Origin: Octopus vulgaris
Lineage: Eukaryota
Direction of reading: 5' to 3'
Length of the DNA stretch: 64,000 bases
Assembly (NCBI GenBank): GCA_951406725.2
Contig: OX597832.1
Location: 55,180,001-55,244,000, forward strand
Position numbers and translations under genes: made by a program. Shown piece after piece: positions 16,761 to 45,387 of this stretch (the first letter of the stretch is position 1; the number at the start of each line of letters is the position of its first letter). The notes beneath the pieces were generated by a model. The model did no database searches. It was not told the DNA's origin and was given only the letters and a program-made list of their open reading frames with translations.

Positions 16761-16780
16761 CACACAACTACGTTGACAGT

Positions 16781-17642: not shown

Positions 17643-18159
17643 TCTTTATATATAAAAGTGAAGTTGTGTGAGTGTCTGTCTCCTACGATTTAGATTCCTA
17701 GCTACTCCCACATTTTGCGGTGCAGTTTAACCAAAACCGGGTATCTTATAGTCGTGATTCATATCGAGCCCGTCTGAGTATTAGCGCGCGTCTACGATGA
17801 GTCTACGATTTTAAAAATAATTTAACATAATTTTTTATTCCATTTTAATGCATAATTTTTCGTGTGTCGATGGCGGCGGAGTTGGCGTCCACGCTCAAAC
17901 ACCTGCACCTGTTTTTGCTTCTCCCCCTTCTTCCCTCCCTCGTGAAGCTGTGGGGAAGGGAGTGTAAGGAAATCAACGTCGTAAAGCGTTGTCAAGGAGA
18001 CCAGCGTTCTTTTAGAACAACGACTTCATGGCTTGAAGACACCAAAACAGAAATGGCTAAGAAAGCCCGAATTGGCATCTATAAAGGAAGTAACTCTCTG
18101 AAAATGCTTATATAGTTATTTCCCTTACAAAACCGAGCAACGCCGGGCGATACTGCTAG
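17643..18159 (+). mobile_element. Non-autonomous Helitron, unit 1 (duplicate at 32160-32674)
   Basis: 5' TC(TTTATATATAAAAG) preceded by A; 3' GC-rich hairpin ccgagcaacgccggg ~10 bp before terminal CTAG; no TSD. Confidence 0.85.
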
Positions 18160-18545
18160 TCTTTATATATAAAAGTGAAGTTGTGTGTCTGTCTCCTACG
18201 ATTTAGATTCCTAACTACTCCCACATTTTGCGGTGCAGTTTAACCAAACCCGGGTATCTTATAGTCGTGATTCATATCGAGCCTTTCTGGGTATTAGCGC
18301 GCGTCTACGATGAGTCTACGATTTTAAAAATAATTTACCATCATTTCTTTCCATTTTAATGCATTTCTTTTGCTATTATATAAGGAAGTAACTCTCTAAA
18401 ATGTCTACGATGAGTCAACGATTTAAAAAAAAATTTACCATCATTTTCCCCCCATTTTTGATGCATTTTTTTGCAATAACTCTCTAAAAATGCTTATATA
18501 GTTATTTCCCTTACAAACCCGAGCAACGCCGGGCGATACTGCTAG
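18160..18545 (+). mobile_element. Non-autonomous Helitron, unit 2, head-to-tail with unit 1 (duplicate at 32675-33045)
   Basis: Precise CTAG|TC junction; ends cccgagcaacgccgggcgatactgCTAG followed by T. Confidence 0.85.
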
Positions 18546-18752
18546 TATCATATATAACACACTAAATTGAACGCGAGATCTATGTTTTTTGTATACGTGT
18601 GTGTGTGTGTGTGAATTCATTCGTTATGAGCTGCGCACTTTTCGCCCTTATGATGCAATATCTAATTATGCAAAAGTCTCTGAGCCGGAGACTATTTGCG
18701 TAATATGAATACATTCGAATTGGTCGGCTCTCTTTCTTTCTTTTTTTATCTT

Positions 18753-18796
<44 letters not shown>

Positions 18797-19065
18797 ACGC
18801 ACATATATTACGACTTAATTTCTTTTTTTAACTGAGAATATTGCTTTTCCTGTTTTCGAGGTCATTCTTATCGTGTTCAGTCGTGTTACCTTGAGATGAC
18901 TTACGAGTAAAGACTAAAAGTAAAAAGTTGACTAATGTAAGTAAGATCTTAGAAGACAAACTTCTGTAATGGGGGAACCAGGGCCCTTATGACCTTCGGC
19001 GGGATCCATGTTCAGAGTTCGCAGTTGAAATTTGTGCTGTAAATTGTTTATGCTTCTACAATACA

Positions 19066-19231
19066 CATGGCTGTGTGGTAAGAAGCTTGCTTCCCAACCA
19101 CATGGTTCCGGGTTCAGTCCCACTGTGTAGCACCTTGGGCAAGTTTTTTCGGGCCGACCAAAACTTTGTGAGTGGATTTGGTAGATGGAAACTGATTGAA
19201 CCCCGTCGTATACATACACAAACACACACAC

Positions 19232-19297
<66 letters not shown>

Positions 19298-19820
19298 TCG
19301 ACTTTTCCTTTCATCCTTTCGTGATCGATAAATCAAGTTCCAGTTGCGTACTAGGGTCGATCTAATCGACTAGCCCCTCCCCAACAATTTCTGGCCTTGT
19401 ACTTAGAGTAGAAAAGATTTTTGGATTTATTTGGGTTTATCAGCCTATAAACATGATAGTTCTTTCTACTCTTGACAGTTTATTTATGGGGGAAAGGATT
19501 AGTCGATTACAAGTGGCATTTATTTTATCGACATCGAAAGGATGAGAAACAAAATTGACCTCGGCGGAATTTGAATTCTAAGCATTTTCCTAGTTTGTTA
19601 ACAATTCTGTCTGCTCACCGCGTTAATAAAATTTAAAAAATATTGATTTCAAATTTTGGTATAGGGCGAGCAAATTCATAAGTGAGGAGTTAAGTCGATT
19701 AGATCGATCCTCGTGCTCTAATGTTACTTATTTTATCGATACCGATACGATGAAAGGCAAAGTCGACCTGGGCGACATTTGAACTCAGAACGTAAAGACG
19801 GACGAAATGCCGCTAGCCAT
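19066..19820. mobile_element. SINE cluster: A head (+), B 3' half (+), two diverged B copies (-)
   Basis: Family motifs as described for the other copies. Confidence 0.8.
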
Positions 19821-19866
19821 TTTGTTCAGTATTCCTAACAGTTGTTTTTTGTTTGTTCCTTCTCGA

Positions 19867-20090
19867 GCCATGCCTGGCTCATTAGGGCCGGTTTCCCGGT
19901 TTCCTTGGTGTATAGGTTCCCCGCCTGGACGGGACGCCGGTCCGTCGCTGGTGAGCTGCAAGATCCAGGAGGAGGCGCGTGGAGCTTAGGTGTTTCGCTT
20001 GTAAACACACACATCGCCCGGTCTGAGATTCGAACCCGCGATCCCTTGACTGCGAGGTCCGCTGCTCTAACCACTAGGCCACGTGCCTCC
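19867..20090 (-). mobile_element. tRNA-headed SINE with a V-domain-like body (related copy 46790-46994 -; related head ~9375-9490 -)
   Basis: Minus strand gcgacggaccggcgtcccgtccagg...ggaaaccggg resembles the V-SINE core as I recall it. Confidence 0.7.
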
Positions 20091-20752
20091 ACATTCCTAA
20101 CAGTGCCAAAGACCAAAGAATAATAGATACGGTACAGCAAATGGTTTGCAGTATTTAGTTTCCATTGCTCTGCAAGATCTAATTCCGCCTGGATAATTTT
20201 AACCTTTCCTCTCTGCAGGGTCACTGGAGTAACTTCCCAGTCCTGTATTTGTGCCATTGTGGGGAAATCAGATGGGAAATCAACTAAGCAGTTCTTAGTT
20301 CATTTTAAGTTAAATTCTCAAAGAATTTGATACAATAATTACTGAAAGAATCGGCTTCGTGGGGAACAGGAAAAAAAAAAAAAAAATATCTGTGACTAAC
20401 TGATGCAGCAGCAGCAGCAGCAGTAGTAGCAGCATTGTTGGATCGCCGAAGACTGGGTTCTGTTGATTATTTTTATTTTCCGAGTTCTTTCAAGTCGTTT
20501 TGTATTTTTAACCAATCTCTGGGGGACGAGGAAGTCATTATGAAGGAGTTGGAAGTTAGGTACATGACCTGTCGAAGATATTATATAGGATAAAGCTTTA
20601 AAGGGCCTGGGATGGGTCCATTCACCCCCACCCCTCTACCACCGTATATATAAATCGCTTATGGAGCTTATTCTTGTTTTCTTCATCCCGATACATCCGT
20701 ATATATATATAAAATATGTATGTATGTATGTATGTATTTATTTATTTATTTA

Positions 20753-20799
<47 letters not shown>

Positions 20800-20884
20800 G
20801 TATATATGTGTGTGTATGTGTGTATATATATGTGTGTGTGTATGTGTATATATATTGTGTGTGTATGCGTATATATATATATAT

Positions 20885-20931
<47 letters not shown>

Positions 20932-21036
20932 TTTTGTAAAGCCTGATACTTATTGTATCATTAGTTTTTGCTGAACCGCTAAGTTACGGGGAGGTAGACA
21001 CACCAACACCGGTTGCCAAGTGATACTGAGGCACAC

Positions 21037-21072
<36 letters not shown>

Positions 21073-22565
21073 GCGGCGGGCTTCTTTCAGTTTCCGACCA
21101 TCAAATTCACTCACAAATTCACTCCGAAGCTAGAGTAGAAGACAGCTACCCAAGTTGCCATGCAGTGGGGCTGTTTTATAGAAATTATAGAAAAAATAAT
21201 AATAAATAAACCTCATTTTCAAACTTATTTATCCAAATTTACGTCGATCTCAGAGCATAAATTTCTTTTTAAAACATCTAACAGCCGATACTGAAGTGGA
21301 TATTCGAATAAAATACGTGTGAAAAATATGTGGAAACCAATTTATTGAAATAGATAAGATATAAGCTAATGAATTTTTTTAAAGTGTTTTTCTGTTTCGT
21401 CGTTTTACGAATTAAATCACATGTCTTGGAGCCATTTACAGACATAAGCTGATATAAGCCTATATTTTTAATTACGGGACTTAAAAACAGAAATAACCAC
21501 AGCAACAGCAATAACAACAGCAGCAGTGGTGATGGAACGAGTCGGGTGGAGCTTGGGGTAATCATTTCTACAGAGCGATGAGGGATTTGTTACTCTACAG
21601 CGAAAGTAAAGGTTTCTCAAACAACGTTTAACGCTAAACTGTTTTGCAATATTAAATATCTGGCGTATGCCACGTCAACAGTTATAAGCAGACGTTTGAA
21701 CTTCAACTGGTTTTTTTCTCTTTTTTATTATTAGACACCAGTGGATCGTGTTCATTAGCAAGTTACAAAACACCATTTCGTTTTTTAACCCGTTGAATGA
21801 GAAAGCATGGGAACATGTAACACACAGACGCACACGTATCCTGCTGCTGTTGTGTGTGTCTGTTGCCGTTTTGTCTTCCCTCTTTGTGTGTGGTATTTAG
21901 GAAGGGAGAAATTGCTGTAAAGTTTTACGAGAAATGTGAGATTTTTTTCCGCCGTTCCATCTCAACTACGCACATTGTGTCTTTTGTGTTTCTGTCTCTA
22001 TCGAAAATAGATCGTAGGGAAATATTTTTTTATATAGACAAAAAGAGTTTAAAAAACCTGACGAGGAACACGTAACCAGCCTGGGTCTTTTGCTTACAGT
22101 TCGTGAGAAAAATGTAAATATCACCAACTGTTATAGCTCGGCTTTTGATGTTTAATATAATATAAGCGAATTTGTGTTATTTTAAAGATAATAAAATGAG
22201 TTAAAAATACTAATTTAAACGTGTACATTGGTAAGAGATGTAATGCTAGTCATTTTGTTTCCTTTTCTGTACGGATTTTAAAGATTTGTAAAGTCGGCTC
22301 TACGACATCAATTCTAGGCTATTCGGTGCGTTGATTCAACTGTCCTAGATATAATGGCTTCGTTATCGATGTATTTTGACTAGACCCGCAGTAATTTTGT
22401 ATTAGGAGAGACAGAGGTGTGTATGTGTGTGAGAGAGATCGATAATAATAACTGATTCTCGTATAATACCAATACCTGTTTTATTGACTTGAAGTGGATA
22501 CGAAAACTAAACTCAATCTGGACGGAAAGTCAACTAATGACAGCAGCGATATATGTGTTTGTGTA

Positions 22566-22596
<31 letters not shown>

Positions 22597-22650
22597 ATCT
22601 ATATATCTATATACACACACACATATATATGGTATATATGTATATGTATG

Positions 22651-22694
<44 letters not shown>

Positions 22695-22804
22695 TAATCC
22701 AAACAAGAAAACAAAAAGACAACAACGCGAGGATGTGGAACAAATAAAGTATTATTGGACGCTCAGGAAAAGAAGGGGGAAGAAATATATATATATACAC
22801 ACAC

Positions 22805-22853
<49 letters not shown>

Positions 22854-22978
22854 GGTATGTATGTATATATACATATGTATGTATACATATATATATATAT
22901 AGTATGTATGTATACATATATATATATAGTATATATGTATATATATATATATACGTATACATATAGTATATATGTATG

Positions 22979-23025
<47 letters not shown>

Positions 23026-23343
23026 AACTAGTTGTTGCTGTGAAGTGTTCATGTCCGTTTACTTGAAGACGCGATCGACTTAGCGGGAAAACGAATAGTT
23101 TTTTTAGGTTTTTTTCTTCTTTTTTTTTCTTTCTGACGAATACAGGGTGTGAAGTTTGAAAACCGGATATAATTTTACGGCAGTAATAAGCTCGATGTGA
23201 TGTTCGCCAATATATTTATTGTACGTATGTGTACATGTGTTATATATATACATATATATATATACGCATACACACATGTACTCATAAGCAAATACATAAA
23301 GGCAATATGCACGCAAATACATACACATCTACAAATGTGTACG

Positions 23344-23397
<54 letters not shown>

Positions 23398-23673
23398 AAA
23401 TCAATTTTAAATAAAATTAAGTATGGCCGGATTAGGATTTCAGTACAGATTAAACTTTATATTTAGTACATTAGGATTACGGTTTTAAATAAAGGCAGTT
23501 TCGGTGACGTCTCTTCTCCCCATCTCCCTACTTTCCTTTCTTTCTTTCTTTCTTTCTTTCTCCCCCCCCCTCTTATTAGCATAAACAATACGCTGTTGTA
23601 TTTTTTCCTGATAATATTATTGCCAACTGTAGGGATTTATCTGGTTATCTCATAAATACATTCGATTTTGGTG

Positions 23674-23773: not shown

Positions 23774-25362
23774 TAAATGCGTATTAGGTAAAAAAAAAAA
23801 GAAAAAAAAAAAGAGAAAAACTGTGGATGCTGGTAAAAATGCTGACCTTCATTGTGTGTTGGTCAACTGGTTTCGACGACTTCAGAGTGTCAGATTGGAC
23901 ATGTTGAGGAGCAAATTAATGGCGGGGGCTCAGGTCTCTCATGCAGGTACAATACATCACGACTGGTTTTTTATAAAGTGTTCTCGTTGATCACAAGTCG
24001 TGGGTCAAGCCTAGGCTATAATAAGGTGCCACACGTCAGGAGTCGAAGTGATCGGAGGGCAACGTGAGACCAGATGTTTTACTGAAAAACACAACGCTCC
24101 ACCCTGTCAAGGAATTGAAACCGAGTTCGTGAGTACAACACCCTAACCACTAGGCCATACGCCCTCACTCACACATATAAATGTGTTATTACGGCCGCCT
24201 TCTTTTAGTTTCTGTCTGTCAAATTCACCCACAAGGCTCCGGTCGCCTTGTGACTGTAACATATGATGCTGAAACCGGAAAACACACGGTTTCTTGTAGC
24301 AGGAACGGCTGTTAGCTAATGAATTTGATTATGTAATTCCTGTTCTCTTGTCGTTTAATAACTGTGCTGTTATAGTAGTGAGATGGTTCTATACTTAGCA
24401 AGGGAACGAGATAACGAGAACTGTGGGTCGAGAATCCATTGTAGGCAATCAACATACCAGGCGATCTGGTTTTTGCCCTTCAAAGAACTTTTCTTTTTTT
24501 TTCTTTTTATTTTACTTGTTTCAGTCATTTTGACTGCGGCCATGCTGGAGCACCGCTTTTAATCGAGCAACTCGACCCGGGACTTATTCTTTGTAAGCCC
24601 AGTACTTATTCTATCGATCCCTTTTGTCGAACCGCTAAGTGACGGGGACATAAACACACCAGCATCGGTTGTCAAGCAATGCTAGGGGGACAAACACAGA
24701 CACATAAACATACACGCACATACATATGTATATACATATATACGACGGGCTTCTTTCAGTTTCCGTCTATCAAATCCACTCACAAGGCTTTGGTCGGCCC
24801 GAGGCTATAGCAGAAGACACTTGCCCAAGGTGCCACGCAGTGGGACTGAACCCGGAACCATGTGGTTGGTAAACAAGTTACTTACCACACAGCCACTCCT
24901 GCGCCTGTATTTTATTTATTTATGTATTTTTATTTCAAGGCCACGTGGAAAAAGAAAAAGGAAAAAAAAAAAAAAAGAGATTGTATTGCATGTATGCTTA
25001 ACTCTTATAAATTGGGGAAAATCTAATACTCGAATCAAACAAGCATTCACGCAAGTTAATTAAATCGCTTTAGTTCTAGTTCTTTCTACCCAAAAATATT
25101 CTTGAGGTTATTGACGAATATAATACTGCATTTCCGTTAGTTTGGAAATGTTAACAACCTCAGCGGAGAACGAATGAGTTCGTTAAGTGAATTCCGTTAT
25201 TCTGTTCACGTCTCTCTAAGTTATTTCTGAAAGATATTCTTCTAAACGTTTCCTCTTGTTACCTTTCTTTTCTTAGCATTCCGGACATTCCTTTGTCAAC
25301 TGCAATACGAAATTCGAATCGCTTTTTCTTTTAACTCGCCAAGTATCTCCTTTCTGCAATAG

Positions 25363-25426
<64 letters not shown>

Positions 25427-25582
25427 ACATACATACATATATATATACACACACATACATACATATATATATACACACACATACATACATATATATATAT
25501 ATATACACACACATACATACATATATATATACACACACATACATACATATATATACACACACATACATATATATATATATAT

Positions 25583-25613
<31 letters not shown>

Positions 25614-26033
25614 CAACATACATACATATATATATATATACAACATACATACATATATATATATATACAACATACATACATATATATATATATACAACAT
25701 ACATACATATATATATATACAACATACATACATATATATATATATACAACATACATACATATATATATATATACAACATACATACATATATATATATATA
25801 CAACATACATACATATATATATATATACAACATACATACATATATATATACACACACATACATACATATATACATACACACACATACATACATATATATA
25901 TACACATACATACATACATATATATATACACATACATACATACATATATATATACACATACATACATACATATATATATACACACACATACAGACATATA
26001 TATATACACACACATACATACATATATATATAT

Positions 26034-26064
<31 letters not shown>

Positions 26065-26069
26065 CACAC

Positions 26070-26110
<41 letters not shown>

Positions 26111-26165
26111 CACATACATACATACATATATATATATATACACATATATATACACACACACATAC

Positions 26166-26198
<33 letters not shown>

Positions 26199-26529
26199 CA
26201 CATACATACATATATATATACACACACATACATATATATATATACACACATACATATATATATATACACACACATATATATATATATATATATATGTATA
26301 TAAACTATGTCGGATGCCTCCTTCACACATCCTTTTTGCACTTTCCTTTTCCCTAAACGCCATAGCGTTTGTGTAACAAAGGTAATCAGCGAGTTCGAGT
26401 TATTTACTTTTATCAGGCGCTGTCAAACTCCCAGGCATGCTATCTTCTGACGATCTATATAACAACCGGACGTCGATACTCCTTACAAGTACACTTGAAT
26501 TAAGCTTTCGATTTTCCATTCTTCCTTCT

Positions 26530-26610
<81 letters not shown>

Positions 26611-26699
26611 TCTTTGGTATTTTATGGAACTACATGTCGACGGTGCTTAGAAACTGCAATTACCCTGGCTTATCGCAATTCAGATAAATGACATATGTT

Positions 26700-26763
<64 letters not shown>

Positions 26764-26879
26764 GTATGTGTGTGTATGTCTGTGTAAGTATGTGTGTGTG
26801 AATATAAATATGTGTGTATATATAAATTGTATGTATATGCATGTACATAAATATGTGTATGAATATATATGTATGTGTA

Positions 26880-26924
<45 letters not shown>

Positions 26925-27147
26925 GTATATATGTACGTGTATGTATATATATGTACGTGATTGTATATGTGTATATATATATGTACGTAATTGTATATAT
27001 GTATATGTGTGTGTATATATATATGTGTGCGTCTGTGTCTATATGTGTGTGTATATATATATGTGTGCGTCTGTGTCTATATGTATATGTATATATGTAC
27101 GTGTATGTATATACATACGTGTATGTATATATGTATTTATATCTGTG

Positions 27148-27180
<33 letters not shown>

Positions 27181-27538
27181 ATATGTGTGTGTAGTTGAAA
27201 CCTGTTATTTATTTTTAAGGAATCAAAAAAAAGAAAGAAGCGTAAAATAAATTTTATTTAAAAAAATCGAGTAAGCAAATCTCGCCTGCGGCCTATAAAA
27301 ATGTCTGACTTGCAGTAAGATGCATCGAGATCGTGTCAGAGACCAGCAGGTCGTGGACCAGACGTTTCTGACACATTACGCAGCGATTAGAATTTCAGAG
27401 TAAACAAATAAGAATGAATCTCTTGGCTTCTGTGTCTTTGTGTGTTTTTTAACCGACAACCGTGACTCTTTTGCGGTCTGTTTACACTCGCACTGGCTTA
27501 CCTTAATATTGTTACCAATGTGTGTGTGTGTGTAAGCG

Positions 27539-27577
<39 letters not shown>

Positions 27578-28092
27578 ATGTGCATATATATGTATGTGCG
27601 TGTGTGTGTGTATATATATATAAATATGTATATGTGCATATATATTTATATATGCATATGTATATGTGTATATATATATATGTGCATATGTATGTATACA
27701 TATGTTTGTATATATGTATGTGTATGTATATATGTATATGTATGAATATATATATCTATGTATGTGTATGCATATATATATATACATATACAAATATATC
27801 CTTGTATATGTATGTACATATATTTGTATAAAAATGTATATATATGTTTGTATATGTGTGTATATATATGTGTATATGCACATACATGTAATATATATGT
27901 GTGTGTGTGTATTTGTATATATTTTTGTGTATATATATATATCTATATAAATATGTATATATGTGTGTGTGTGTGTGTGTGTATGTATATATATATATGT
28001 ATATTTCAAACAAAGACAGGTGCGGGAAGAACAGATAAGGTGTATGAGTTTGACGCTCAAGAAATATTTATGTTTGTGTGGATATATATATA

Positions 28093-28136
<44 letters not shown>

Positions 28137-28468
28137 CGTTTTGAGAACTGGATCTTGAAGCACATGAAGCTATAAATAAATCCATTCCACTATAGTCACA
28201 AGGCATCTCAGTACTCAATTGGTACTTCGTGAAGTTATAAATAATCCCACGTAACTATTTGGTTGAAAAACACTTTTGAATAGCAGGGACGTGGGTTCGT
28301 ATCCCGCGCGCACCTTTCGAATTTTTTGTTTTATTCCAAGCGGTTTTTCAACCTGTATTTATACGCTGTCATTTGTAGCCGTTTGTGCTTCGAGATGCAC
28401 TCTTCCATATATAATTATTTCACGTTTACTCGTGAAGTTTACAAATTCTTTTGAAGTTATATATATAC

Positions 28469-28528
<60 letters not shown>

Positions 28529-28728
28529 ATATTATTTCAGCCAGTAGATTGTGGTCATGCTGGAGCACCGCCTTGGAGAAATTTTCGTCGAATAAATCGA
28601 CCCCAGTACTTATTTTCCAAGCCTGGTGCTTATTCTCTCGGACACCTTTCTCAAACCGCTGAGTTTCGGGGACGTAAATATACCAACATCGGTTTTTGAA
28701 GCGATGATGGGAGACAAACACACTCGTG

Positions 28729-28779
<51 letters not shown>

Positions 28780-29765
28780 CTGGCTTCTTTCAGTTTCCGT
28801 TTACCAAATCCACTCGCAAAGTGTTAGTCGGCCCAAGGCTATAGTTGGAGACACTTGCCCAAGGTGCCACACAGCGGAAGTAGACCCAATAGAGTCACGC
28901 GTGACTCATGACTGTAGCACTCAGTGCACTTGGTTGGAGTGCACATTTAATAACAGTTTGATTCAGCTCGGCATTACTTCAAGTTTTATGAGTGTTTAGG
29001 ACACGTCCACCTCGTCATATTATTTGGTTCTTTAGTGTTGATACTTATCGACCCAGCGAGTCAGAGAGAGAGGGAGAGAGACAGTGTGTGTGTGTGTGAC
29101 TCTTCACTGTCTTTCAAATTATTAATGATAGCAGCCAAATCTCCGTCATATCACACACTACTGTCTTAAAAAAAGAAGGCGGCTATATTTGGATAATATA
29201 TTCACTCTTTTACTTGTTTCAGTCATTTGACTGTGGCCATGCTGGAGCACCGCCTTTAGTCGAGCTAATCGAACCCAGGACTTATTCTTTGTAAGCCTAG
29301 TACTTATTCTATCGGTCTCTTTTGCCGAACCGCTAAGTTACGGGGACGTAAACAGACCAGTATGGTGATTGCCAAGCGATGTTGGGGGGGGGGGGACAAA
29401 CATATATACACACACATACATATATATGACGGGCTTCTTTCAGTTTCCGTCTACCAAATCCACTCACAAGGTTTTGGTTGGCCCGAGGCTATAGTAGAAG
29501 ACACATGCCCAAGGTGCCACGCAGTGGGACTGAACCCGGAACTGTGAGGTTCGTAAGCAAGCTACTTACCACACAGCCACTCCTATTTCCGCTGTCTGTC
29601 CCTGCTCCCACCCCACCTCCACCAAAACAAAAAATTCCGGTGGGGATTGTCAGGACTGGAACGGTATTTCGTCACAGGTTTCTTCTTCACTTGCTCACCA
29701 CTTGGCGTGGGATTAAGGAACATCGCCATCATCTCTTCCTCTCCCTCTTTCTATTTTTACTACCC

Positions 29766-29801
<36 letters not shown>

Positions 29802-30449
29802 TTCATCAGATTTCCCATGCCACTACCGCCCGCCATACCCCATGACCGCCATATCAATGCAAACTAGTAATTGCATTGAATGGATTGTTGCATGCTTAAA
29901 GAAGATCGTGTGTGTGTGTGTGTGTGTTTGTCTGTGTGTGTGTGCGTGTGTGTGTGACGTCATTTGACTTCGATTCGTGTAATCATGCAAAAGCTCGCCA
30001 GGTTTAATAGAAATATCATTAGTGTCTTGCGAAACCAGGCTTTTTACTTCCTTATCACACGCATGCGTGCACACATACACACACACACACACACGCACGC
30101 ACTCGCACACACACTCGCACATATGCACGCACGCCCGCCCGCTCACGTGCGTGCACGCACACGTAAAGCCGAGCTTTCTATTCAGAAATTATCTGAGGAA
30201 ACCTGACTTAAAAGTTGTAATACGAACCAAACCACCCTAGATTGCATACTCACCGTTATCATCATCATCATCATCATAACTACCATCGCCATCATCATCG
30301 TCCTGATCATCAATCCACCCCCATCATCATCATCATCATCACTCAACCTGATATACTAAGACACGCCTTTCTCTCTCTCTCTCTCCTCATCCTACTCTTT
30401 TTCTTTATTCTCTCTCATGTTCTCTCTCCGTTTCTCTCTCTCTCTTTCT

Positions 30450-30485
<36 letters not shown>

Positions 30486-33254
30486 GTATCCTGTATGTAT
30501 TTTAAGCACGATAATATCTGTATCCAAGCAGACTTAATATGATATACTCTTTTTTTTTACTTGTTTCAGTCATGTGACTGTGGCCATGCTGGAGCACCGC
30601 CTTTAGTCGAGCAAATCGAACCCAGGACTTATTCTTTGTAAGCCTAGTACTTATTCTATCGGTCTTTTTTGCCGAACCGCTCGGTTGTCAAGTGATTGGG
30701 GGGGGGGCAAACGTATTCACACACAAACGTATTCACACACATACATATACATATACATATATATACATATACATATATATACATATACATACATATACAT
30801 ATATATACATATACATATATATACATATATATACATATACATATATATACATATATATATACGACGGGCTTGTTTCAGTTTCTGTCTACCAAATCCACTC
30901 ACAAGGCTTTGGTCGGCCTGAAGCTATAGTAGAAGACACTTGCCCAAGGTGCCACGCAGTGGGACTGAACCCGGAACCATGAGGTTCGTAAGCAAGTCTC
31001 TTGCCACACAGCCACTCCTACGCCTATACTGTTACTCTTCTCATATAAATATACATTATAGTTGTTGTTGTGACGGTTGTTGTTGTGATTTGTCGTTGTT
31101 TAGTCCCTGGTCAGTTCTGAGGAAACAGACCTTTGATTCAATCCGTTCCAGCAATGACATTACCGTCTTCTTTCGAACATTACATGTCAAGTAAAATCTA
31201 CGTTATCCCATATTATCCTCTGTGTACATAACCATTGTGCGTTCTTCAAAGGTTTCTGGCTGGTGTTTCTGTATATCACACAACTACGTTGACAGTGATT
31301 GGCTGGTGTTTCTAGCAGGTCGAATGACTGCGTAGATGGCTGCTACCTCACTGGTTCTTACAGATTTGCGACCAACCTTATTGAACGGACGATAGTGCGT
31401 ATTCGAGGGTGATTGGCTGGTGTTTCTTAGCAGGTCGAGCGATTACGTAGATGGCTGCTACCTCACTGGTTCTTACAGGTTTGTTGCCAGGTTTATTGAA
31501 CGGACGATAGTGCGTATTCGAGGGTGATTGTCTGGTGTTTCTAGCAGGTCGAATGACTACGTAGATGGCTACTACCTCACTCGTTCTTACGGATTTATGT
31601 CCAGCCTTAGTTAACGGACGATAGTGCGTATTTGAGGGTGACTGGCTGGTGTTTCTAGCAGGTCGAATGACTACGTAGATGGCTGCTACCTCACTGGTTT
31701 TTATAGATTTGCGACCAGCCTTATTTAACGGACCATAGTGCGTATTCGAGGGTGATTGGCTGGTGTTTCTAGCAGGTCGAGCGATTACGTAGATGGCTGC
31801 TACCTCACTGGTTTTTATAGATTTGCGGCCAGGCTTATTTAACGGACGTTAACCTCGATCTGTGTCGAGTTAACCTTCAAATCACCATCTTTGACTCATA
31901 TACGGCTTTTAACAACACCGGAAGGAACTAATTTTCGTACGCTTACATTTAAGCCTTTAGAGTTGATAGAGATTTTTTTTTTATAGCTTTTTAAACATTT
32001 TTAAGTTTCTCTTTTCTTTTTCGTTTCATCTTTTAATTATTGAAAGAGTATTCCATTCCAATTTACATATTTCAGCTATTAACAGTATTGCGTTTCCTGA
32101 GCCTCGTTCTCAATTTAATTTTTTTTTCTTCCTGTGTTTTTTTTTCTTTCTAATGTATATCTTTATATATAAAAGTGAAGTTGTGTGAGTGTCTGTCTCC
32201 TACGATTTAGATTCCTAGCTACTCCCACATTTTGCGGTGCAGTTTAACCAAAACCGGGTATCTTATAGTCGTGATTCATATCGAGCCCGTCTGAGTATTA
32301 GCGCGCGTCTACGATGAGTCTACGATTTTAAAAATAATTTAACATAATTTTTTATTCCATTTTAATGCATAATTTTTCGTGTGTCGATGGCGGCGGAGTT
32401 GGCGTCCACGCTCAAACACCTGCACCTGTTTGCTTCTCCCCCTTCTTCCCTCCCTCGTGAAGCTGTGGGGAAGGGAGTGTAAGGAAATCAACGTCGTAAA
32501 GCGTTGTCAAGGAGACCAGCGTTCTTTTAGAACAACGACTTCATGGCTTGAAGACACCAAAACAGAAATGGCTAAGAAAGCCCGAATTGGCATCTATAAA
32601 GGAAGTAACTCTCTGAAAATGCTTATATAGTTATTTCCCTTACAAAACCGAGCAACGCCGGGCGATGTTGCTAGTGAAGTTGTGTGTCTGTCTCCTACGA
32701 TTTAGATTCCTAACTACTCCCACATTTTGCGGTGCAGTTTAACCAAACCGGGTATCTTATAGTCGTGATTCATATCGAGCCTTTCTGGGTATTAGCGCGC
32801 GTCTACGATGAGTCTACGATTTTAAAAAATATTTACCATCTTTTTTTTCCATTTGAATGCATTTTTTTCGCTATTATATAAGGGAAGTAACTCTCTAAAA
32901 GTGTCTACGATGAGTCAACGATTTAAAAAAAAATTTACCATCATTTTCCCCCCATTTTTGATGCATTTTTTTGCAATAACTCTCTAAAAATGCTTATATA
33001 GTTATTTCCCTTACAAACCCGAGCAACGCCGGGCGATACTGCTAGTATCATATATAACACACTAAATTGAACGCGAGATCTATGTTTTTTGTATACGTGT
33101 GTGTGTGTGTGTGTGAATTCATTCGTTATGAGCTGCGCACTTTTCGCCCTTATGATGCAATATCTAATTATGCAAAAGTCTCTGAGCCGGAGACTATTTG
33201 CGTAATATGAATACATTCGAATTGGTCGGCTCTCTTTCTTTCTTTTTTTATCTT

Positions 33255-33298
<44 letters not shown>

Positions 33299-33730
33299 AC
33301 GCACATATATTACGACTTAATTTCTTTTTTTAACTGAGAATATTGCTTTTCCTGTTTTCGAGGTCATTCTTATCGTGTTCGTCGTGTTACCTTGAGATGA
33401 CTTACGAGTAAAGACTAAAAGTAAAAAGTTGACTAATGTAAGTAAGATCTTAGAAGACAAACTTCTGTAATGGGGGAACCAGGGCCCTTATGACCTTCGG
33501 CGGGATCCATGTTCAGAGTTCGCAGTTGAAATTTGTGCTGTAAATTGTTTATGCTTCTACAATACACATGGCTGTGTGGTAAGAAGCTTGCTTCCCAACC
33601 ACATGGTTCCGGGTTCAGTCCCACTGTGTAGCACCTTGGGCAAGTTTTTTCGGGCCGACCAAAACCTTGTGAGTGGATTTGGTAGATGGAAACTGATTGA
33701 AACCCGTCGTATACATACACAAACACACAC

Positions 33731-33794
<64 letters not shown>

Positions 33795-35239
33795 TCGACT
33801 TTTCCTTTCATCCTTTCGTGATCGATAAATCAAGTTCCAGTTGCGTACTAGGGTCGATCTAATCGACTAGCCCCCTCCCCAACAATTTCTGGCCTTGTAC
33901 TTAGAGTAGAAAAGATTTTTGGATTTATTTGGGTTTATCAGCCTATAAACATGATAGTTCTTTCTACTCTTGACAGTTTATTTATGGGGGGAAAGGATTA
34001 GTCGATTACAAGTGGCATTTATTTTATCGACATCGAAAGGATGAGAAACAAAATTGACCTCGGCGGAATTTGAATTCTAAGCATTTTCCTAGTTTGTTAA
34101 CAATTCTGTCTGCTCACCGCGTTAATAAAATTTAAAAAATATTGATTTCAAATTTTGGTATAGGGCGAGCAAATTCATAAGTGAGGAGTTAAGTCGATTA
34201 GATCGATCCTCGTGCTCTAATGTTACTTATTTTATCGATACCGATACGATGAAAGGCAAAGTCGACCTGGGCGACATTTGAACTCAGAACGTAAAGACGG
34301 ACGAAATGCCGCTAGCCATTTTGTTCAGTATTCCTAACAGTTGTTTTTTGTTTGTTCCTTCTCGAGCCATGCCTGGCTCATTAGGGCCGGTTTCCCGGTT
34401 TCCTTGGTGTATAGGTTCCCCGCCTGGACGGGACGCCGGTCCGTCGCTGGTGAGCTGCAAGATCCAGGAGGAGGCGCGTGGAGCTTAGGTGTTTCGCTTG
34501 TAAACACACACATCGCCCGGTCTGAGATTCGAACCCGCGATCCCTTGACTGCGAGGTCCGCTGCTCTAACCACTAGGCCACGTGCCTCCACATTCCTAAC
34601 AGTGCCAAAGACCAAAGAATAATAGATACGGTACAGCAAATGGTTTGCAGTATTTAGTTTCCATTGCTCTGCAAGATCTAATTCCGCCTGGATAATTTTA
34701 ACCTTTCCTCTCTGCAGGGTCACTGGAGTAACTTCCCAGTCCTGTATTTGTGCCATTGTGGGGAAATCAGATGGGAAATCAACTAAGCAGTTCTTAGTTC
34801 ATTTTAAGTTAAATTCTCAAAGAATTTGATACAATAATTACTGAAAGAATCGGCTTCGTGGGGAACAGGAAAAAAAAAAAAAAAATATCTGTGACTAACT
34901 GATGCAGCAGCAGCAGCAGCAGTAGTAGCAGCATTGTTGGATCGCCGAAGACTGGGTTCTGTTGATTATTTTTATTTTCCGAGTTCTTTCAAGTCGTTTT
35001 GTATTTTTAACCAATCTCTGGGGGACGAGGAAGTCATTATGAAGGAGCTGGAAGTTAGGTACATGACCTGTCGAAGATATTATATAGGATAAAGCTTTAA
35101 AGGGCCTGGGATGGGTCCATTCACCCCCACCCCTCTACCACCGTATATATAAATCGCTTATGGAGCTTATTCTTGTTTTCTTCATCCCGATACATCCGTA
35201 TATATATATAAAATATGTATGTATGTATGTATTTATTTA

Positions 35240-35286
<47 letters not shown>

Positions 35287-35399
35287 GTATATATGTGTGT
35301 GTATGTGTGTATATATATATATGTGTGTGTATGTGTGTATATATATGTGTGTGTGTATGTGTATATATATTGTGTGTGTATGCGTATATATATATATAT

Positions 35400-35450
<51 letters not shown>

Positions 35451-35554
35451 TATTGTAAAGCCTGATACTTATTGTATCATTAGTTTTTGCTGAACCGCTA
35501 AGTTACGGGGAGGTAGACACACCAACACCGGTTGCCAAGTGATACTGAGGCACA

Positions 35555-35585
<31 letters not shown>

Positions 35586-37165
35586 ATGCGGCGGGCTTCT
35601 TTCAGTTTCCGACCATCAAATTCACTCACAAATTCACTCCGAAGCTAGAGTAGAAGACAGCTACCCAAGTTGCCATGCAGTGGGGCTGTTTTATAGAAAT
35701 TATAGAAAAAATAATAATAAATAAACCTCATTTTCAAACTTATTTATCCAAATTTACGTCGATCTCAGAGCATAAATTTCTTTTTAAAACATCTAACAGC
35801 CGATACTGAAGTGGATATTCGAATAAAATACGTGTGAAAAATATGTGGAAACCAATTTATTGAAATAGATAAGATATAAGCTAATGAATTTTTTAAAGTG
35901 TTTTTCTGTTTCGTCGTTTTACGAATTAAATCACATGTCTTGGAGCCATTTACAGACATAAGCTGATATAAGCCTATATTTTTAATTACGGGACTTAAAA
36001 ACAGAAATAACCACAGCAACAGCAATAACAACAGCAGCAGTGGTGATGGAACGAGTCGGGTGGAGCTTGGGGTAATCATTTCTACAGAGCGATGAGGGAT
36101 TTGTTACTCTACAGCGAAAGTAAAGGTTTCTCAAACAACGTTTAACGCTAAACTGTTTTGCAATATTAAATATCTGGCGTATGCCACGTCAACAGTTATA
36201 AGCAGACGTTTGAACTTCAACTGGTTTTTTTTTTTTCTCTTTTTTATTATTAGACACCAGTGGATCGTGTTCATTAGCAAGTTACAAAACACCATTTCGT
36301 TTTTTAACCCGTTGAATGAGAAAGCATGGGAACATGTAACACACAGACGCACACGTATCCTGCTGCTGTTGTGTGTGTCTGTTGCCGTTTTGTCTTCCCT
36401 CTTTGTGTGTGGTATTTAGGAAGGGAGAAATTGCTGTAAAGTTTTACGAGAAATGTGAGATTTTTTTCCGCCGTTCCATCTCAACTACGCACATTGTGTC
36501 TTTTGTGTTTCTGTCTCTATCGAAAATAGATCGTAGGGAAATATTTTTTTATATAGACAAAAAGAGTTTAAAAAACCTGACGAGGAACACGTAACCAGCC
36601 TGGGTCTTTTGCTTACAGTTCGTGAGAAAAATGTAAATATCACCAACTGTTATAGCTCGGCTTTTGATGTTTAATATAATATAAGCGAATTTGTGTTATT
36701 TTAAAGATAATAAAATGAGTTAAAAATACTAATTTAAACGTGTACATTGGTAAGAGATGTAATGCTAGTCATTTTGTTTCCTTTTCTGTACGGATTTTAA
36801 AGATTTGTAAAGTCGGCTCTACGACATCAATTCTAGGCTATTCGGTGCGTTGATTCAACTGTCCTAGATATAATGGCTTCGTTATCGATGTATTTTGACT
36901 AAACCCGCAGTAATTTTGTATTAGGAGAGACAGAGGTGTGTATGTGTGTGAGAGAGATCGATAATAATAACTGATTCTCGTATAATACCAATACCTGTTT
37001 TATTGACTTGAAGTGGATACGAAAACTAAACTCAATCTGGACGGAAAGTCAACTAATGACAGCAGCGATATATGTGTTTGTGTATGTATGTGTGTGTGTG
37101 TGTGTGTGTGTATCTATATATCTATATACACACACACATATATATGGTATATATGTATATGTATG

Positions 37166-37209
<44 letters not shown>

Positions 37210-37315
37210 TAATCCAAACAAGAAAACAAAAAGACAACAACGCGAGGATGTGGAACAAATAAAGTATTATTGGACGCTCAGGAAAGAAGGAAGAAATATA
37301 TATATATACACACAC

Positions 37316-37364
<49 letters not shown>

Positions 37365-37491
37365 GGTATGTATGTGTGTATATACATATGTATGTATACA
37401 TATATATATATATAGTATGTATGTATACATATATATATATAGTATATATGTATATATATATATATACGTATACATATAGTATATATGTATG

Positions 37492-37538
<47 letters not shown>

Positions 37539-37857
37539 AACTAGTTGTTGCTGTGAAGTGTTCATGTCCGTTTACTTGAAGACGCGATCGACTTAGCGGG
37601 AAAACGAATAGTTTTTTTAGGGTTTTTTTCTTCTTTTTTTTTCTTTCTGACGAATACAGGGTGTGAAGTTTGAAAACCGGATATAATTTTACGGCAGTAA
37701 TAAGCTCGATGTGATGTTCGCCAATATATTTATTGTACGTATGTGTACATGTGTTATATATATACATATATATATATACGCATACACACATGTACTCATA
37801 AGCAAATACATAAAGGCAATATGCACGCAAATACATACACATCTACAAATGTGTACG

Positions 37858-37903
<46 letters not shown>

Positions 37904-38181
37904 AAATCAATTTTAAATAAAATTAAGTATGGCCGGATTAGGATTTCAGTACAGATTAAACTTTATATTTAGTACATTAGGATTACGGTTTTAAATAAAG
38001 GCAGTTTCGGTGACGTCTCTTCTCCCCATCTCCCTACTTTCCTTTCTTTCTTTCTTTCTTTCTTTCTCCCCCCCCCCCTCTTATTAGCATAAACAATACG
38101 CTGTTGTATTTTTTCCTGATAATATTATTGCCAACTGTAGGGATTTATCTGGTTATCTCATAAATACATTCGATTTTGGTG
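23774..38181 (+). repeat. Copy 2 of the ~14.5 kb duplication; repeats every SINE, Helitron, minisatellite and microsatellite of copy 1
   Basis: Starts with the same taaatgcgtattaggt right after the gap and matches through cattcgattttggtg, then runs into a SINE. Confidence 0.97.
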
Positions 38182-38564: not shown

Positions 38565-39042
38565 ACATTCGATTTTAAAATTTTGGGGTTTTTGAATCAG
38601 CAACACAAACGCGTGTGCGTGCGAGCGTACACACACTTTGTATTTTTAATAAACAGCACCTCACCTCCATAAAAGACACTATCTCCGAGCGAAAACCGGA
38701 GTAAATTTCCATTTTTGCAATGCATTTGCATTCAAAGTCAGAAATAGCGCTCTCTCTCTCTCACTCTCTTTCGTATATTGCTATTATGTTAAACTGTCGT
38801 ATGTCCAAATTTGGCCAAATACGTATTTTTTCAATATGTATTTTGCATACAAATAGCCGGTTCTTTTGGTCAAACTATTGTATCTCCAGCTGCTTCAGAT
38901 GCCAAGATATTAAAAATTGTCAAAGTGTAGTACAATGGTTTTGCTATGGAATGGTGGAACTACTTTTGCGCCTTCTGAAAAAGCAACGTTTTGGACTCAC
39001 GATACTTTTGCATAATAGCAACGGTGTATATATATATATATC

Positions 39043-39180
39043 TGGATTAATCAGCCGAAATTGCTAAGATGATCCGGTTCCCGACTGAAGATTAGAGGCT
39101 TCGAATGACCCGTCTGTTTTTTTTGTGTCGTCTCTTTGTGTGTTTTTGCGTTCTTGTCCCATTTTGTAATTTATATTTAA
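39043..39180 (+). mobile_element. Unclassified interspersed repeat family F (other copies ~44535-44780 and ~52035-52170)
   Basis: Shared cagccgaaattgc...gactgaagattagaggcttcgaatgacccgtc...ttttgcgttcttgtcccattttgta. Confidence 0.75.
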
Positions 39181-39203
39181 TTTCTCTCTCTATATATATA
39201 TAA

Positions 39204-39295
39204 AAATCTGCACCGGCATCTCTTCAGTTATCGAGGTAATCAAAATATGCATATTTTTATTGCCTCGATAACTGAAGAGATGCCGGTGCAGGTTT
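39204..39295. repeat. 92-bp spacerless palindrome (inverted partial duplication)
   Basis: Two 46-bp arms with 3 mismatches, centred on aaaatatg|catatttt. Confidence 0.95.
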
Positions 39296-39327
39296 CCGCC
39301 CCGACATCCGAAACTCGGAGTTTTATT
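39267..39327 (+). ncRNA. Type I hammerhead ribozyme candidate (PLE-type)
   Basis: Stem I gataa/ttatt; core CTGAAGA (39272-39278); stem II gatgccgg/ccgacatc (one mismatch, one extra C before GAAA); GAAA; stem III ACTC-G-GAGT; GTT triplet, predicted cut after 39322. Confidence 0.65.
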
Positions 39328-39430
39328 ATGGCAACCGAATAATTATCACATATTATATTACACATAAATTCCTCTATTTACATAATATCGAAGTCTCTTT
39401 CATTCTCATGTTGTCTTACCATTACTATTA

Positions 39431-39480
<50 letters not shown>

Positions 39481-41452: not shown

Positions 41453-41509
<57 letters not shown>

Positions 41510-41738
41510 GGAGGCGGTGAGCTGGCAGAATCGTTAGCACACCGGGCGAAATGCATTAGCGGTATTTCGTCTGCCGCTACGTCCTGAGTTCAAATTCCGC
41601 TGAGGTCGACTTTGCCTTTAAATCCATTTCGGGGTCGATTAATTAAGTACCAGTGAAACTCTGGTGGGGTCGATCTAATCGACTAGTCAGTCCCCTTCCC
41701 CAAAATTTCAGGCTTTGTGCCTCCAGTAGAAAGGATTA

Positions 41739-41782
<44 letters not shown>

Positions 41783-42007
41783 GGAGGCGGTGAGCTGGCA
41801 GAATCGTTAGCACACCGGGCGAAATGCATTAGCGGTATTTCGTCTGCCGTTACGTTCTGAGTTCAAATTCCGCTGAGGTCGACTTTGCCTTTAAATCCAT
41901 TTCGGGGTCGATTAATTAAGTACCAGTGAAACTCTGGTGGGGTCGATCTAATCGACTAGTCAGTCCCCTTCCCCAAAATTTCAGGCTTTGTGCCTCCAGT
42001 AGAAAGG

Positions 42008-42052
<45 letters not shown>

Positions 42053-42280
42053 GGAGGCGGTGAGCTGGCAGAATCGTTAGCACACCGGGCGAAATGCATT
42101 AGCGGTATTTCGTCTGCCGTTACGTTCTGAGTTCAAATTCCGCTGAGGTCGACTTTGCCTTTAAATCCATTTCGGGGTCGATTAATTAAGTACCAGTGAA
42201 ACTCTGGGGGGTCGATCTAATCGACTAGTCAGTCCCCTTCCCCAAAATTTCAGGCTTTGTGCCTCCAGTAGAAAGGATTA

Positions 42281-42339
<59 letters not shown>

Positions 42340-42568
42340 GGAGGCGGTGAGCTGGCAGAATCGTTAGCACACCGGGCGAAATGCATTAGCGGTATTTCGT
42401 CTGCCGTTACGTTCTGAGTTCAAATTCCGCTGAGATCGACTTTGCCTTTAAATCCATTTCGGGGTCGATTAATTAAGTACCAGTGAAACTCTGGTGGGGT
42501 CGATCTAATCGACTAGTCAGTCCCCTTCCCCAAAATTTCAGGCTTTGTGCCTCCAGTAGAAAGGATTA

Positions 42569-42624
<56 letters not shown>

Positions 42625-42853
42625 GGAGGCGGTGAGCTGGCAGAATCGTTAGCACACCGGGCGAAATGCATTAGCGGTATTTCGTCTGCCGCTACGTTCT
42701 GAGTTCAAATTCCGCTGAGATCGACTTTGCCTTTAAATCCATTTCGGGGTCGATTAATTAAGTACCAGTGAAACTCTGGGGGGGTCGATCTAATCGACTA
42801 GTCAGTCCCCTTCCCCAAAATTTCAGGCTTTGTGCCTCCAGTAGAAAGGATTA

Positions 42854-42909
<56 letters not shown>

Positions 42910-43137
42910 GGAGGCGGTGAGCTGGCAGAATCGTTAGCACACCGGGCGAAATACATTAGCGGTATTTCGTCTGCCGTTACGTTCTGGGTTCAAATTCCGC
43001 TGAGATCGACTTTGCCTTTAAATCCATTTCGGGGTCGATTAATTAAGTACCAGTGAAACTCGGGGGGGTCGATGTAATCGACTGGTCAGTCCCCTTCCCC
43101 AAAATTTCAGGCTTTGTGCCTCCAGTAGAAAGGATTA

Positions 43138-43172
<35 letters not shown>
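41510..43172 (+). repeat. Tandem array of six full-length family B SINEs separated by (ATT)n
   Basis: Units start ggaggcggtgagctggcagaatcg at 41510, 41783, 42053, 42340, 42625 and 42910. Each is ~225 bp ending gtagaaaggatt. A leading (ATT)n tract lies at 41453-41509. Confidence 0.96.
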
Positions 43173-44534: not shown

Positions 44535-44943
44535 CATCGCTGCTTTCTTCCAAGGAATCTAATGCTCTTAGATTAGTTTTTCCTTGGGGCTGGCCAGATT
44601 GGAGCAATCTCAAGTATAATCAACCGAAATTGCGAAGATAATCTGGTACTTGACTGAGGAAAGAAAATTTCGAATGACCCGTCCTTGTTTTCTTTGTATC
44701 GTCTATCTGGATGTTTTGTTGTCCCATTTTTGTATCACCTAACTATCCGGATGTTTTGCGTTCTTGTCCTATTTTGTATTATAAATATAATAGGTGATCC
44801 CAACTATGTAATTGATAGTACCTTTCAAGTAACACTTAACAATAATGTTGATTACAATATTGTTAATTATCCTGGTTTAATACTTTATTCTGAAAGTGGG
44901 ATTAGTACTAATTCGTTTAACTATGAGCACTACATACGAGTGA

Positions 44944-45387
44944 CTAAAACGCCTTTGTAATTACAAAAAAAACGAAAATATTTGTCCTTTAGAAAATCAG
45001 TGTTTAAGGAAGAATTCAGTATATGAATATAAGGTAATTGCAGACGGTCGCGCCCGTTTTTTCATAGGTTCTCTTGCTACAACTTTAAAATATAGATTAC
45101 ATCACCATTCCCCTTCGCTTAAGTTTCAAAGAAAACGTAATTCTACGGATCTTCGTAAATGCATTTCGGATTTGAAAAGACAGGAACATTTTAACTACGG
45201 TATAAAGTGGACAATTATTAGTTACGCTCCATCGTACAATACTGGTAATTTTAAATGTACTGATTGCCCAGAGGAAATGTATTATATAATTACTTCAAAA
45301 TTAGAATGATTGAATTGTCGAAACAATCATACCTTAAAATTTTCTCATAAATATAGAAAAACATTTCAATATTTCAATAGTTTATGA
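44944..45387 (+). pseudogene. Decayed GIY-YIG endonuclease C-terminus of a Penelope-like element (Naiad-like)
   Basis: Manual translation of frame +1: LKRLCNYKKNENICPLENQCLRKNSVYEYKVIADGRARFFIGSLATTLKYRLHHHSPSLKFQRKRNSTDLRKCISDLKRQEHFNYGIKWTIISYAPSYNTGNFKCTDCPEEMYYIITSKLE*LNCRNNHTLKFSHKYRKTFQYFNSL*. It fits the pattern CNC-x-CPLxxxCL, VY...(Y)IG, KxR...H, NSTxL, YxIKWxII, CxxCxEE, LNxR. No ATG start, one internal TGA at 45307. Confidence 0.88.

What the first reader, a model, noticed from the sequence alone, without database searches (positions are those of the whole stretch)
39204..39430. Hammerhead ribozyme whose 5' half is locked in a 92-bp palindrome
Seen: a CTGAAGA/GAAA core with stems I-III, and an upstream antisense copy covering stem I, the core and half of stem II. 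Established: PLE terminal repeats carry minimal type I hammerheads with very short stem III that cleave as dimers, and PLE insertions often have inverted partial repeats. Inference: a read-through transcript would fold into a 46-bp hairpin that blocks the ribozyme and offers a Dicer/ADAR substrate, whereas a transcript starting at the axis could self-cleave.
Basis: partly seen in the sequence, partly recalled or inferred. Interest (0 to 1): 0.7.

Follow-up and report, generated by a model that had tools for sequence, protein, structure and literature searches.

The report
Hydra-clade Penelope stump with hammerhead
The mirror-image stretch and the hammerhead-shaped RNA motif are really there, but they are the cut-short end of a common Penelope-type jumping gene joined head to head with a shorter inverted copy of itself, likely a by-product of how the element inserts and not a purpose-built RNA switch.

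Summary
In detail: a 92-bp palindrome (43 of 46 pairs) overlaps a type I hammerhead motif. It is the 3' end of an abundant Penelope-like retrotransposon. Longer copies run into an RT plus GIY-YIG ORF with the Hydra-clade motifs, and the stem III sequence equals published Hydra hammerheads. Head-to-head inverted arms are routine in this family: 32 of 69 sampled loci show both arms, always one with and one without a ~67-nt tail, and the junction lies anywhere from inside the ribozyme to 1.9 kb upstream. The 'half-locked' layout is peculiar to this copy, whose left arm is unusually short. The hairpin would block the ribozyme (55 kcal/mol predicted), but no RNA, cleavage or editing at this locus was shown. 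Two family-level patterns are worth keeping: arms end independently, which fits twin priming and not cDNA fold-back; and 5' ends pile up just upstream of stem I (24 of 69) and near the predicted cut (10 of 32 inverted arms). The scan has noted this kind of insertion repeatedly on other DNA of this and other genomes. Verdict: new family member of a known kind, low interest.

The parts
39204..39249 (-). Left (inverted) arm: 46 nt of the element's 3' region, family positions about -74 to -28 from the predicted cut; lacks GAAA, stem III and the cut site; about 70 nt shorter at its outer end than the usual tail-less arm
39250..39432 (+). Right arm: 5'-truncated 3' end (pLTR) of a Hydra-clade Penelope-like element, family positions -73 to +109, with the full tail
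   Evidence: best relatives 95-96% identical
39260..39271 (+). Hammerhead stem I, 5' strand
   Evidence: inner helix 96% of cells paired; pair 39267/39327 seen as GU, AU and GC
39272..39278 (+). Core CUGANGA; N7 (39276) is A 83, C 53, T 18, G 3 among 157 arms
39279..39309 (+). Long irregular stem II with two mismatches and one extra C before GAAA, all family traits
39310..39322 (+). GAAA, palindromic stem III (ACTC-G-GAGT) and cut triplet GUU (GUC in 38 of 157 arms); predicted cut after 39322
39323..39334 (+). Hammerhead stem I, 3' strand
39366..39432 (+). Optional tail (about 67 nt) between the two preferred 3' ends of the family
39183..39203 (.). Left flank, (TC)n(TA)n microsatellite target
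39433..39480 (.). Right flank, (CA)n(TA)n microsatellite; no target-site duplication can be told apart from the repeats

Best explanation
This is a 5'-truncated insertion of a Hydra-clade Penelope-like retrotransposon in a (TA)n tract, made of a sense copy of the element's 3' end with its hammerhead motif and a shorter inverted copy joined head to head, likely formed when both cut target strands primed reverse transcription and the two cDNAs were joined. Shown: family membership, the two preferred 3' ends, one tailed and one tail-less arm per insertion, independent inner ends, same-subfamily arms. Inferred: the element's protein nicks both strands of (TA)n, starts one cDNA at about +109 and the other at about +40 (here, unusually, at -28, or the arm was later shortened), and the 3' ends are joined over a few bases (here a 2-nt GC overlap). 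The hammerhead is an inherited part of the pLTR that would cut as a dimer in tandem transcripts; this single, roughly 4% diverged copy is predicted to be inactive, with or without the hairpin.
For: 3262 first-look candidates in the own genome and 320 exact matches to a 25-nt pattern, 0 for the reversed control. Longer copies continue upstream into a GIY-YIG-type C-terminus and an RT region with RWK, DKT, CxCx5C, CxxC and CxH motifs; tandem-junction copies run from +109 into a leader and the ORF start. 32 of 69 pattern-chosen loci have an inverted arm with both outer ends seen, and 32 of 32 pair a tailed with a tail-less arm. The tail-less arm reaches further upstream in 15 of 31, the tailed arm in 8, and they are within 10 nt in 8. 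Arms agree at N7 in 37 of 37 pairs against 19.2 shuffled. One palindrome has 1.9-kb arms (L091). PMC11167929 reports nicking and extension of both strands and two RT start sites bounding the tail for another PLE.
Against: No empty-site allele or target-site duplication was seen, so the insertion steps are inferred. This copy's left arm ends at -28, outside the tail-less class; none of the 32 counted inverted arms does that (a few query-chosen loci do: L007, L029, L046). Six loci with inverted sequence were left out of the 32 because the outer end was unresolved or the inversion did not overlap (L100, L116, L147, L158, L161, L170). Pfam gave only a weak GIY-YIG match (E 0.015, below cut-off) and no RT family. 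Arms disagree at some subfamily sites (-31: 13 of 41; -36: 7 of 41). Formal covariation of the hammerhead helices was not above shuffles (60 of 500).
Confidence: 0.88

Rival explanations
1. Same element, but the palindrome arose by self-priming: one cDNA (or an antisense template) folded back and copied itself, as proposed for bdelloid Penelope elements.
For: PMC3846280 reads head-to-head palindromes as self-priming on an antisense template. Arms share the subfamily. 8 of 31 insertions have nearly equal inner ends, as this copy does.
Against: A fold-back of one cDNA needs the tailed arm to be the template and so to reach at least as far upstream; in 15 of 31 the tail-less arm reaches more than 10 nt further, up to about 1.4 kb. 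Self-priming on an antisense RNA was not modelled here.
Confidence: 0.07
2. The hairpin is a regulatory switch: read-through RNA is locked and feeds Dicer or ADAR, while RNA starting at the axis self-cleaves.
For: The hairpin blocks the hammerhead fold by 55 kcal/mol. The axis lies in a hotspot of 5' ends (-56 to -76), which could be a natural start site. Family reads occur in RNA runs in both directions.
Against: Junctions vary from +86 to -1900 among copies. No pile-up of read starts or ends at the axis or the cut. The monomer from the axis is predicted to misfold and has no dimer partner. The copy carries ordinary private mutations in both arms.
Confidence: 0.03
3. The palindrome formed after insertion, by repair or replication slippage at the microsatellite, or is an assembly artefact.
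For: The arm is unusually short and sits beside a younger repeat inserted in the same TA tract. The window has a 14.5-kb duplication across an N gap nearby.
Against: The arms differ at 3 of 46 positions, which a read-level artefact would not give; the same architecture recurs in 32 of 69 loci with a fixed tail asymmetry; the duplication ends at 38181.
Confidence: 0.02

Closest known systems
Hydra clade of C-terminal EN+ Penelope-like elements, including Hydra-1_Obim (Craig et al. 2021, PMC8557442)
   Same: RWK, DKT, CxCx5C linker, no CCHH, CxxC and CxH motifs, (TA)n targeting, 3' hammerhead. Stem III ACTC-G-GAGT is the same as in Hydra-2_aMil and Penelope-16_HM (File S2). The protein reads by eye as a close relative of Hydra-1_Obim.
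   Different: A separate family: hammerhead sequence differs from Hydra-1_Obim (other stem III, longer stem II, extra C before GAAA); 3' UTR about 0.9 kb with TG-rich repeats; tail about 67 nt against the 30-40 bp usually quoted.
PLE insertion units with an adjacent inverted 5'-truncated pLTR and a one-sided tail (Arkhipova et al. 2013, PMC3846280; Craig et al. 2021)
   Same: Head-to-head inverted copy, palindrome at the junction, tail on one end only.
   Different: Here counted on a sample: 32 of 32 one-sided tails and independent inner ends, which argues against simple fold-back; this copy's inverted arm is shorter than the class.
PLE hammerheads (Cervera and de la Pena 2014, PMC4209133); PAc Poseidon (Frangieh et al. 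2024, PMC11167929)
   Same: Type I, long stem II, short palindromic stem III; two preferred 3' ends bounding a tail.
   Different: The unpaired base lies on the 3' side of stem II, not between A9 and G10.1; U17 in most copies; no activity assay here. PAc showed no RNA ends at the cut in RNA-seq, whereas here some DNA arms end near it.

Membership tests
Hydra-clade PLE | Single ORF with RT followed by C-terminal GIY-YIG endonuclease | tested here: met
   Order and motifs read in broken copies; 53 homologues of 612-970 aa at E <= 1e-20 align over both parts. Pfam support is weak. Not in the window copy, which is non-coding.
Hydra-clade PLE | RWK motif and DKG modified to DKT | tested here: met
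   RWK in L129; DKT in L131, L140, L141
Hydra-clade PLE | CxCx5C linker, no CCHH, CxxC and CxH around the conserved E and N | tested here: met
   Linker and CxxC in L082, CxH in L083; no cysteine pair between the GIY- and YIG-like strands
Hydra-clade PLE | Insertion into (TA)n | tested here: met
   Flanks printed
Hydra-clade PLE | Placement in the Hydra clade on an RT tree | not tested
   No reference set was available to the tools; comparison with Hydra-1_Obim was by eye only
EN+ PLE insertion unit | Partial tandems forming pLTRs, inverted 5'-truncated copy, optional tail | tested here: met
Type I hammerhead ribozyme | Core C3 U4 G5 A6 N7 G8 A9, G12 A13 A14, A15.1-U16.1, NUH | tested here: met
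   All present; variation concentrated at N7 and position 17; part of the sample was chosen with a pattern that fixes -20 to +4
Type I hammerhead ribozyme | Three helices supported by covariation | tested here: inconclusive
   89.6% of cells paired against 25-58% for slid controls, but covariation score reached by 60 of 500 shuffles
Type I hammerhead ribozyme | Rfam Hammerhead_1 gathering score | tested here: not met
   17.3 bits against 34
Type I hammerhead ribozyme | Self-cleavage at the predicted site | not testable with these tools
   No pile-up of read ends in ordinary RNA-seq, which would not be expected to show it well
Non-LTR retrozyme | Non-coding tandem units of a few hundred nt, each with a hammerhead | tested here: not met
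   Copies are variably truncated ends of a coding element; one hit in the window with the family model

The most novel reading that the evidence does not exclude
The ends of these dead copies are a genomic record of the ribozyme at work: arms that stop at 0 to +4 were copied from self-cleaved RNA, the pile-up at -56 to -76 marks either the element's start site or release of the RT once it has crossed the ribozyme, and every palindrome is a twin-primed product using two start sites that share one sequence motif. That would give in vivo evidence for PLE hammerhead cleavage and a testable insertion mechanism.
Probability: 0.3. Interest if true: 0.6.

Novelty: new member of a known kind. Interest (0 to 1): 0.27.

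Why it matters
The locus itself matters little: it is one decayed copy among many hundreds. The family statistics bear on two open points in PLE biology named in the papers read: how inverted, one-side-tailed insertions form, and whether pLTR hammerheads cut in vivo. If twin priming and cut-site ends hold up on the full copy set, they give direct predictions for the existing in vitro PLE assay. Palindromic copies inside transcribed regions could also be a source of double-stranded RNA, which was not shown here.

Tried and rejected
Rfam over 7 kb gave only microRNA-type hairpin matches far below gathering scores; rejected as a miRNA. No RNA holder was listed by the look-up of sequencing runs; this is no evidence on expression. 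Raw RNA runs X22-X24 are labelled organism B, about 6 in 100 of each was read, and most reads laid are 85-95% alike, so they come from other copies; no start or end pile-up and no joint at the candidate splice acceptor. A splice acceptor at -74 (pyrimidine run then AG, by analogy with D. virilis) was considered as the cause of the hotspot: no shared upstream exon in the junctions. Tandem-junction copies did not separate 'start site' from 'RT release': by eye about 7 of 15 that pass -55 also stop at -56 to -76. Pairing of the tail with the core as a natural off-state: 20 of 22 copies against 119 of 176 shuffled tails, median 12.5% of shuffles as strong (38 of 51); inconclusive. RNAalifold on 60 full arms gave almost no consensus structure. 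Covariation was not above shuffles. The family model found no second hammerhead in the window. Lunse et al. 2017 was not held; it is cited only through PMC6765202. Searches for the end-hotspot or a twin-priming account for PLEs listed no such paper; the library lacks most subscription journals.

Full report
Observation. The palindrome is real: 39204-39295, axis at 39249/39250, 43 of 46 positions complementary, and the only non-microsatellite palindrome among the 26 best in the window. Rfam Hammerhead_1 aligns to 39266-39331 but weakly (17.3 bits, E 0.054 on 96 nt, gathering 34) and is not listed in a 7-kb scan. Below, positions are given relative to the predicted cut (0 = 39323).

What it belongs to. 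The own genome (2.8 Gb; likely an octopus, inferred from recalled repeat motifs and the scan's earlier notes) holds many copies: 3262 first-look candidates for 39195-39430, 2098 for the 3' part alone, and 320 exact matches to a 25-nt pattern with 0 for the reversed control. Walking upstream from long copies led through about 0.9 kb of 3' UTR into an endonuclease C-terminus and an RT region; 12 of the 20 loci found with the endonuclease DNA have the hammerhead region downstream in sense within the fetched stretch. The motifs listed for the Hydra clade in PMC8557442 (section 11 read) are all seen in broken copies: RWK, DKT, CxCx5C, no CCHH, CxxC and CxH. Pfam adds little (GIY-YIG E 0.015). File S2 of that paper lists Hydra hammerheads with the same stem III, ACTC-G-GAGT, and often U at position 17. 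Hydra-1_Obim is a close relative by eye but has a different hammerhead, so this is another family of that clade. Tandem-junction copies run from +109 into a leader and the ORF start.

The hammerhead. Among 157 arms the most variable core-region positions are N7 (A 83, C 53, T 18, G 3) and position 17 (T 116, C 38), the two that hammerheads leave free (established knowledge), while the fixed core letters stay at 93-99%. Part of the sample was chosen with queries that fix -20 to +4, so conservation there is partly built in. On 101 arms, 89.6% of cells pair against 25-58% for slid controls, and one stem I pair occurs as GU, AU and GC, but covariation does not exceed shuffles (60 of 500). The long irregular stem II and the extra C before GAAA are family traits. 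Stem III is unstable as a monomer hairpin (+2.1 kcal/mol) and stable as a self-duplex (-11.5), which fits the dimer mode described in PMC4209133 (parts 1-2 of 4 read), where a single minimal motif showed no cleavage. With the left arm, enforcing the hammerhead costs 55 kcal/mol; from the axis it still costs 10.6.

The palindrome is a family habit. I examined 69 loci taken from the pattern matches on contigs 1-3 (70 fetched, L106 dropped as the partner of L107), a choice blind to palindromes. 32 have an inverted arm directly upstream with both outer ends visible (two, L096 and L121, read by eye); six more have inverted sequence that could not be classed and were left out; 31 have none upstream. 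In 32 of 32, one arm ends near +109 and the other at +10 to +54, mostly near +40. Both preferred ends are followed in the element by a similar motif (AAATT, optional A, CCTC). This is the known one-sided tail (PMC8557442 and PMC3846280, passages). Junctions range from +86 to about -1900 (L091, a 3.9-kb palindrome with arms 95% alike). This copy is unusual only in that the left arm stops at -28.

Mechanism. Inner ends of the two arms are independent: the tail-less arm is longer in 15 of 31, the tailed arm in 8, equal within 10 nt in 8 (L165 not resolved). A cDNA that folds back on itself cannot give a tail-less arm that reaches further than its tailed template, so simple fold-back is rejected for about half the cases. 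Arms come from the same subfamily (N7 37 of 37; position 17 40 of 45; -36 34 of 41; -31 28 of 41; -60 no better than shuffled; 60 pairs from all loci up to L184, query-chosen ones included). The best reading is twin priming: both target strands are nicked, each primes a cDNA from one of two start sites on the same or sibling RNAs, and the cDNA ends are joined. PMC11167929 (parts 1-2 of 4 read) shows both-strand extension and two start sites bounding the tail for a Poseidon element. These steps are inferred, not shown.

Where copies stop. 5' ends of the 69 pattern-bearing arms: 10 at -21 to -55, 24 at -56 to -76, 11 at -77 to -255, 24 beyond, a per-base rate about ten times the upstream one. 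Seven arms with internal deletions were counted as beyond; L181 may belong near -190; the bins were drawn after seeing the data, so the p values are optimistic. This copy's axis (-74/-73) lies at the upstream edge of that cluster. Among the 32 inverted arms, 10 stop at +10 to -7, 5 of them at 0 to +4, and 9 at -56 to -76. The first cluster could record self-cleaved templates or RT stalling at the core. The second could be a start site, or RT release and microhomology joining at the U-rich stretch before stem I; tandem-junction copies did not decide it. I rate local release slightly above a start site.

RNA. Family-like reads occur at low depth in both directions in three raw RNA runs (306, 283 and 184 reads laid at 85% likeness, about 6 in 100 of each run read), with no pile-up of ends. 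At 95% likeness none covered the axis of this copy in the one raw run laid. These runs may be from a related species, so this says little.

Novelty. Architecture, clade and ribozyme type are published. The scan's own notes describe the same kind of insertion on other DNA of this and other genomes, including the twin-priming and cut-site ideas; these are unchecked AI notes, seen after my analysis of arm ends up, and are not counted as support. A look-up by this sequence found nothing. PMC13282606 (passages) lists Penelope-like families in an octopus genome but has no mention of hammerheads or palindromes in its main text; its repeat library was not seen and may already hold this family. bioRxiv 10.64898/2026.07.22.740005 was read in part 1 of 5 only, PMC2377424 and PMC6765202 as passages. 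Verdict: new member of a known kind; interest 0.27.

Noticed in passing
window 39040-39188: A second, younger (TA)n-targeting repeat sits directly left of the palindrome (2441 candidates; best relatives 98-99% identical). It is 5'-truncated, forms tandems, has an optional ~35-nt tail, and carries CTGANGA (N varies: also 44652 and L172) with a GAAA upstream of it, so it may be a PLE end with an atypical or permuted hammerhead like those in the scan's notes. One DNA run labelled organism A had almost no depth on it, so it may be lineage-specific. No ORF was found upstream in the fetched loci.
   Followed up: partly
window 44540-44790: An older relative of that second repeat; it matches both arms of an inverted pair in L009.
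   Followed up: no
window 44944-45309 (+): Diverged endonuclease remnant that aligns with Hydra-type C-termini; no Pfam match; a different family from the finding.
   Followed up: partly
window 9094-23673 and 23774-38181: 14.5-kb tandem duplication at 97-98.5% identity across a 100-N gap; likely an assembly artefact of two haplotypes.
   Followed up: partly
window 41454-43171: Six tandem units of 270-287 nt of a SINE-like repeat separated by (ATT)n, 95-97% alike.
   Followed up: no
L096, L234 junctions: The two arms are joined through the complementary strands of stem I, so the ribozyme's own helix supplies the microhomology.
   Followed up: partly
family positions -160 to -75 (e.g. L102, L161): Three imperfect ~35-nt repeats directly upstream of the hotspot, often lost one or two at a time; they resemble promoter motifs (recalled Myb-type and initiator-like words), untested.
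   Followed up: no
L116, L158: Inversions in which the inverted piece lies upstream of and does not overlap the sense arm, as in L1 twin priming.
   Followed up: partly
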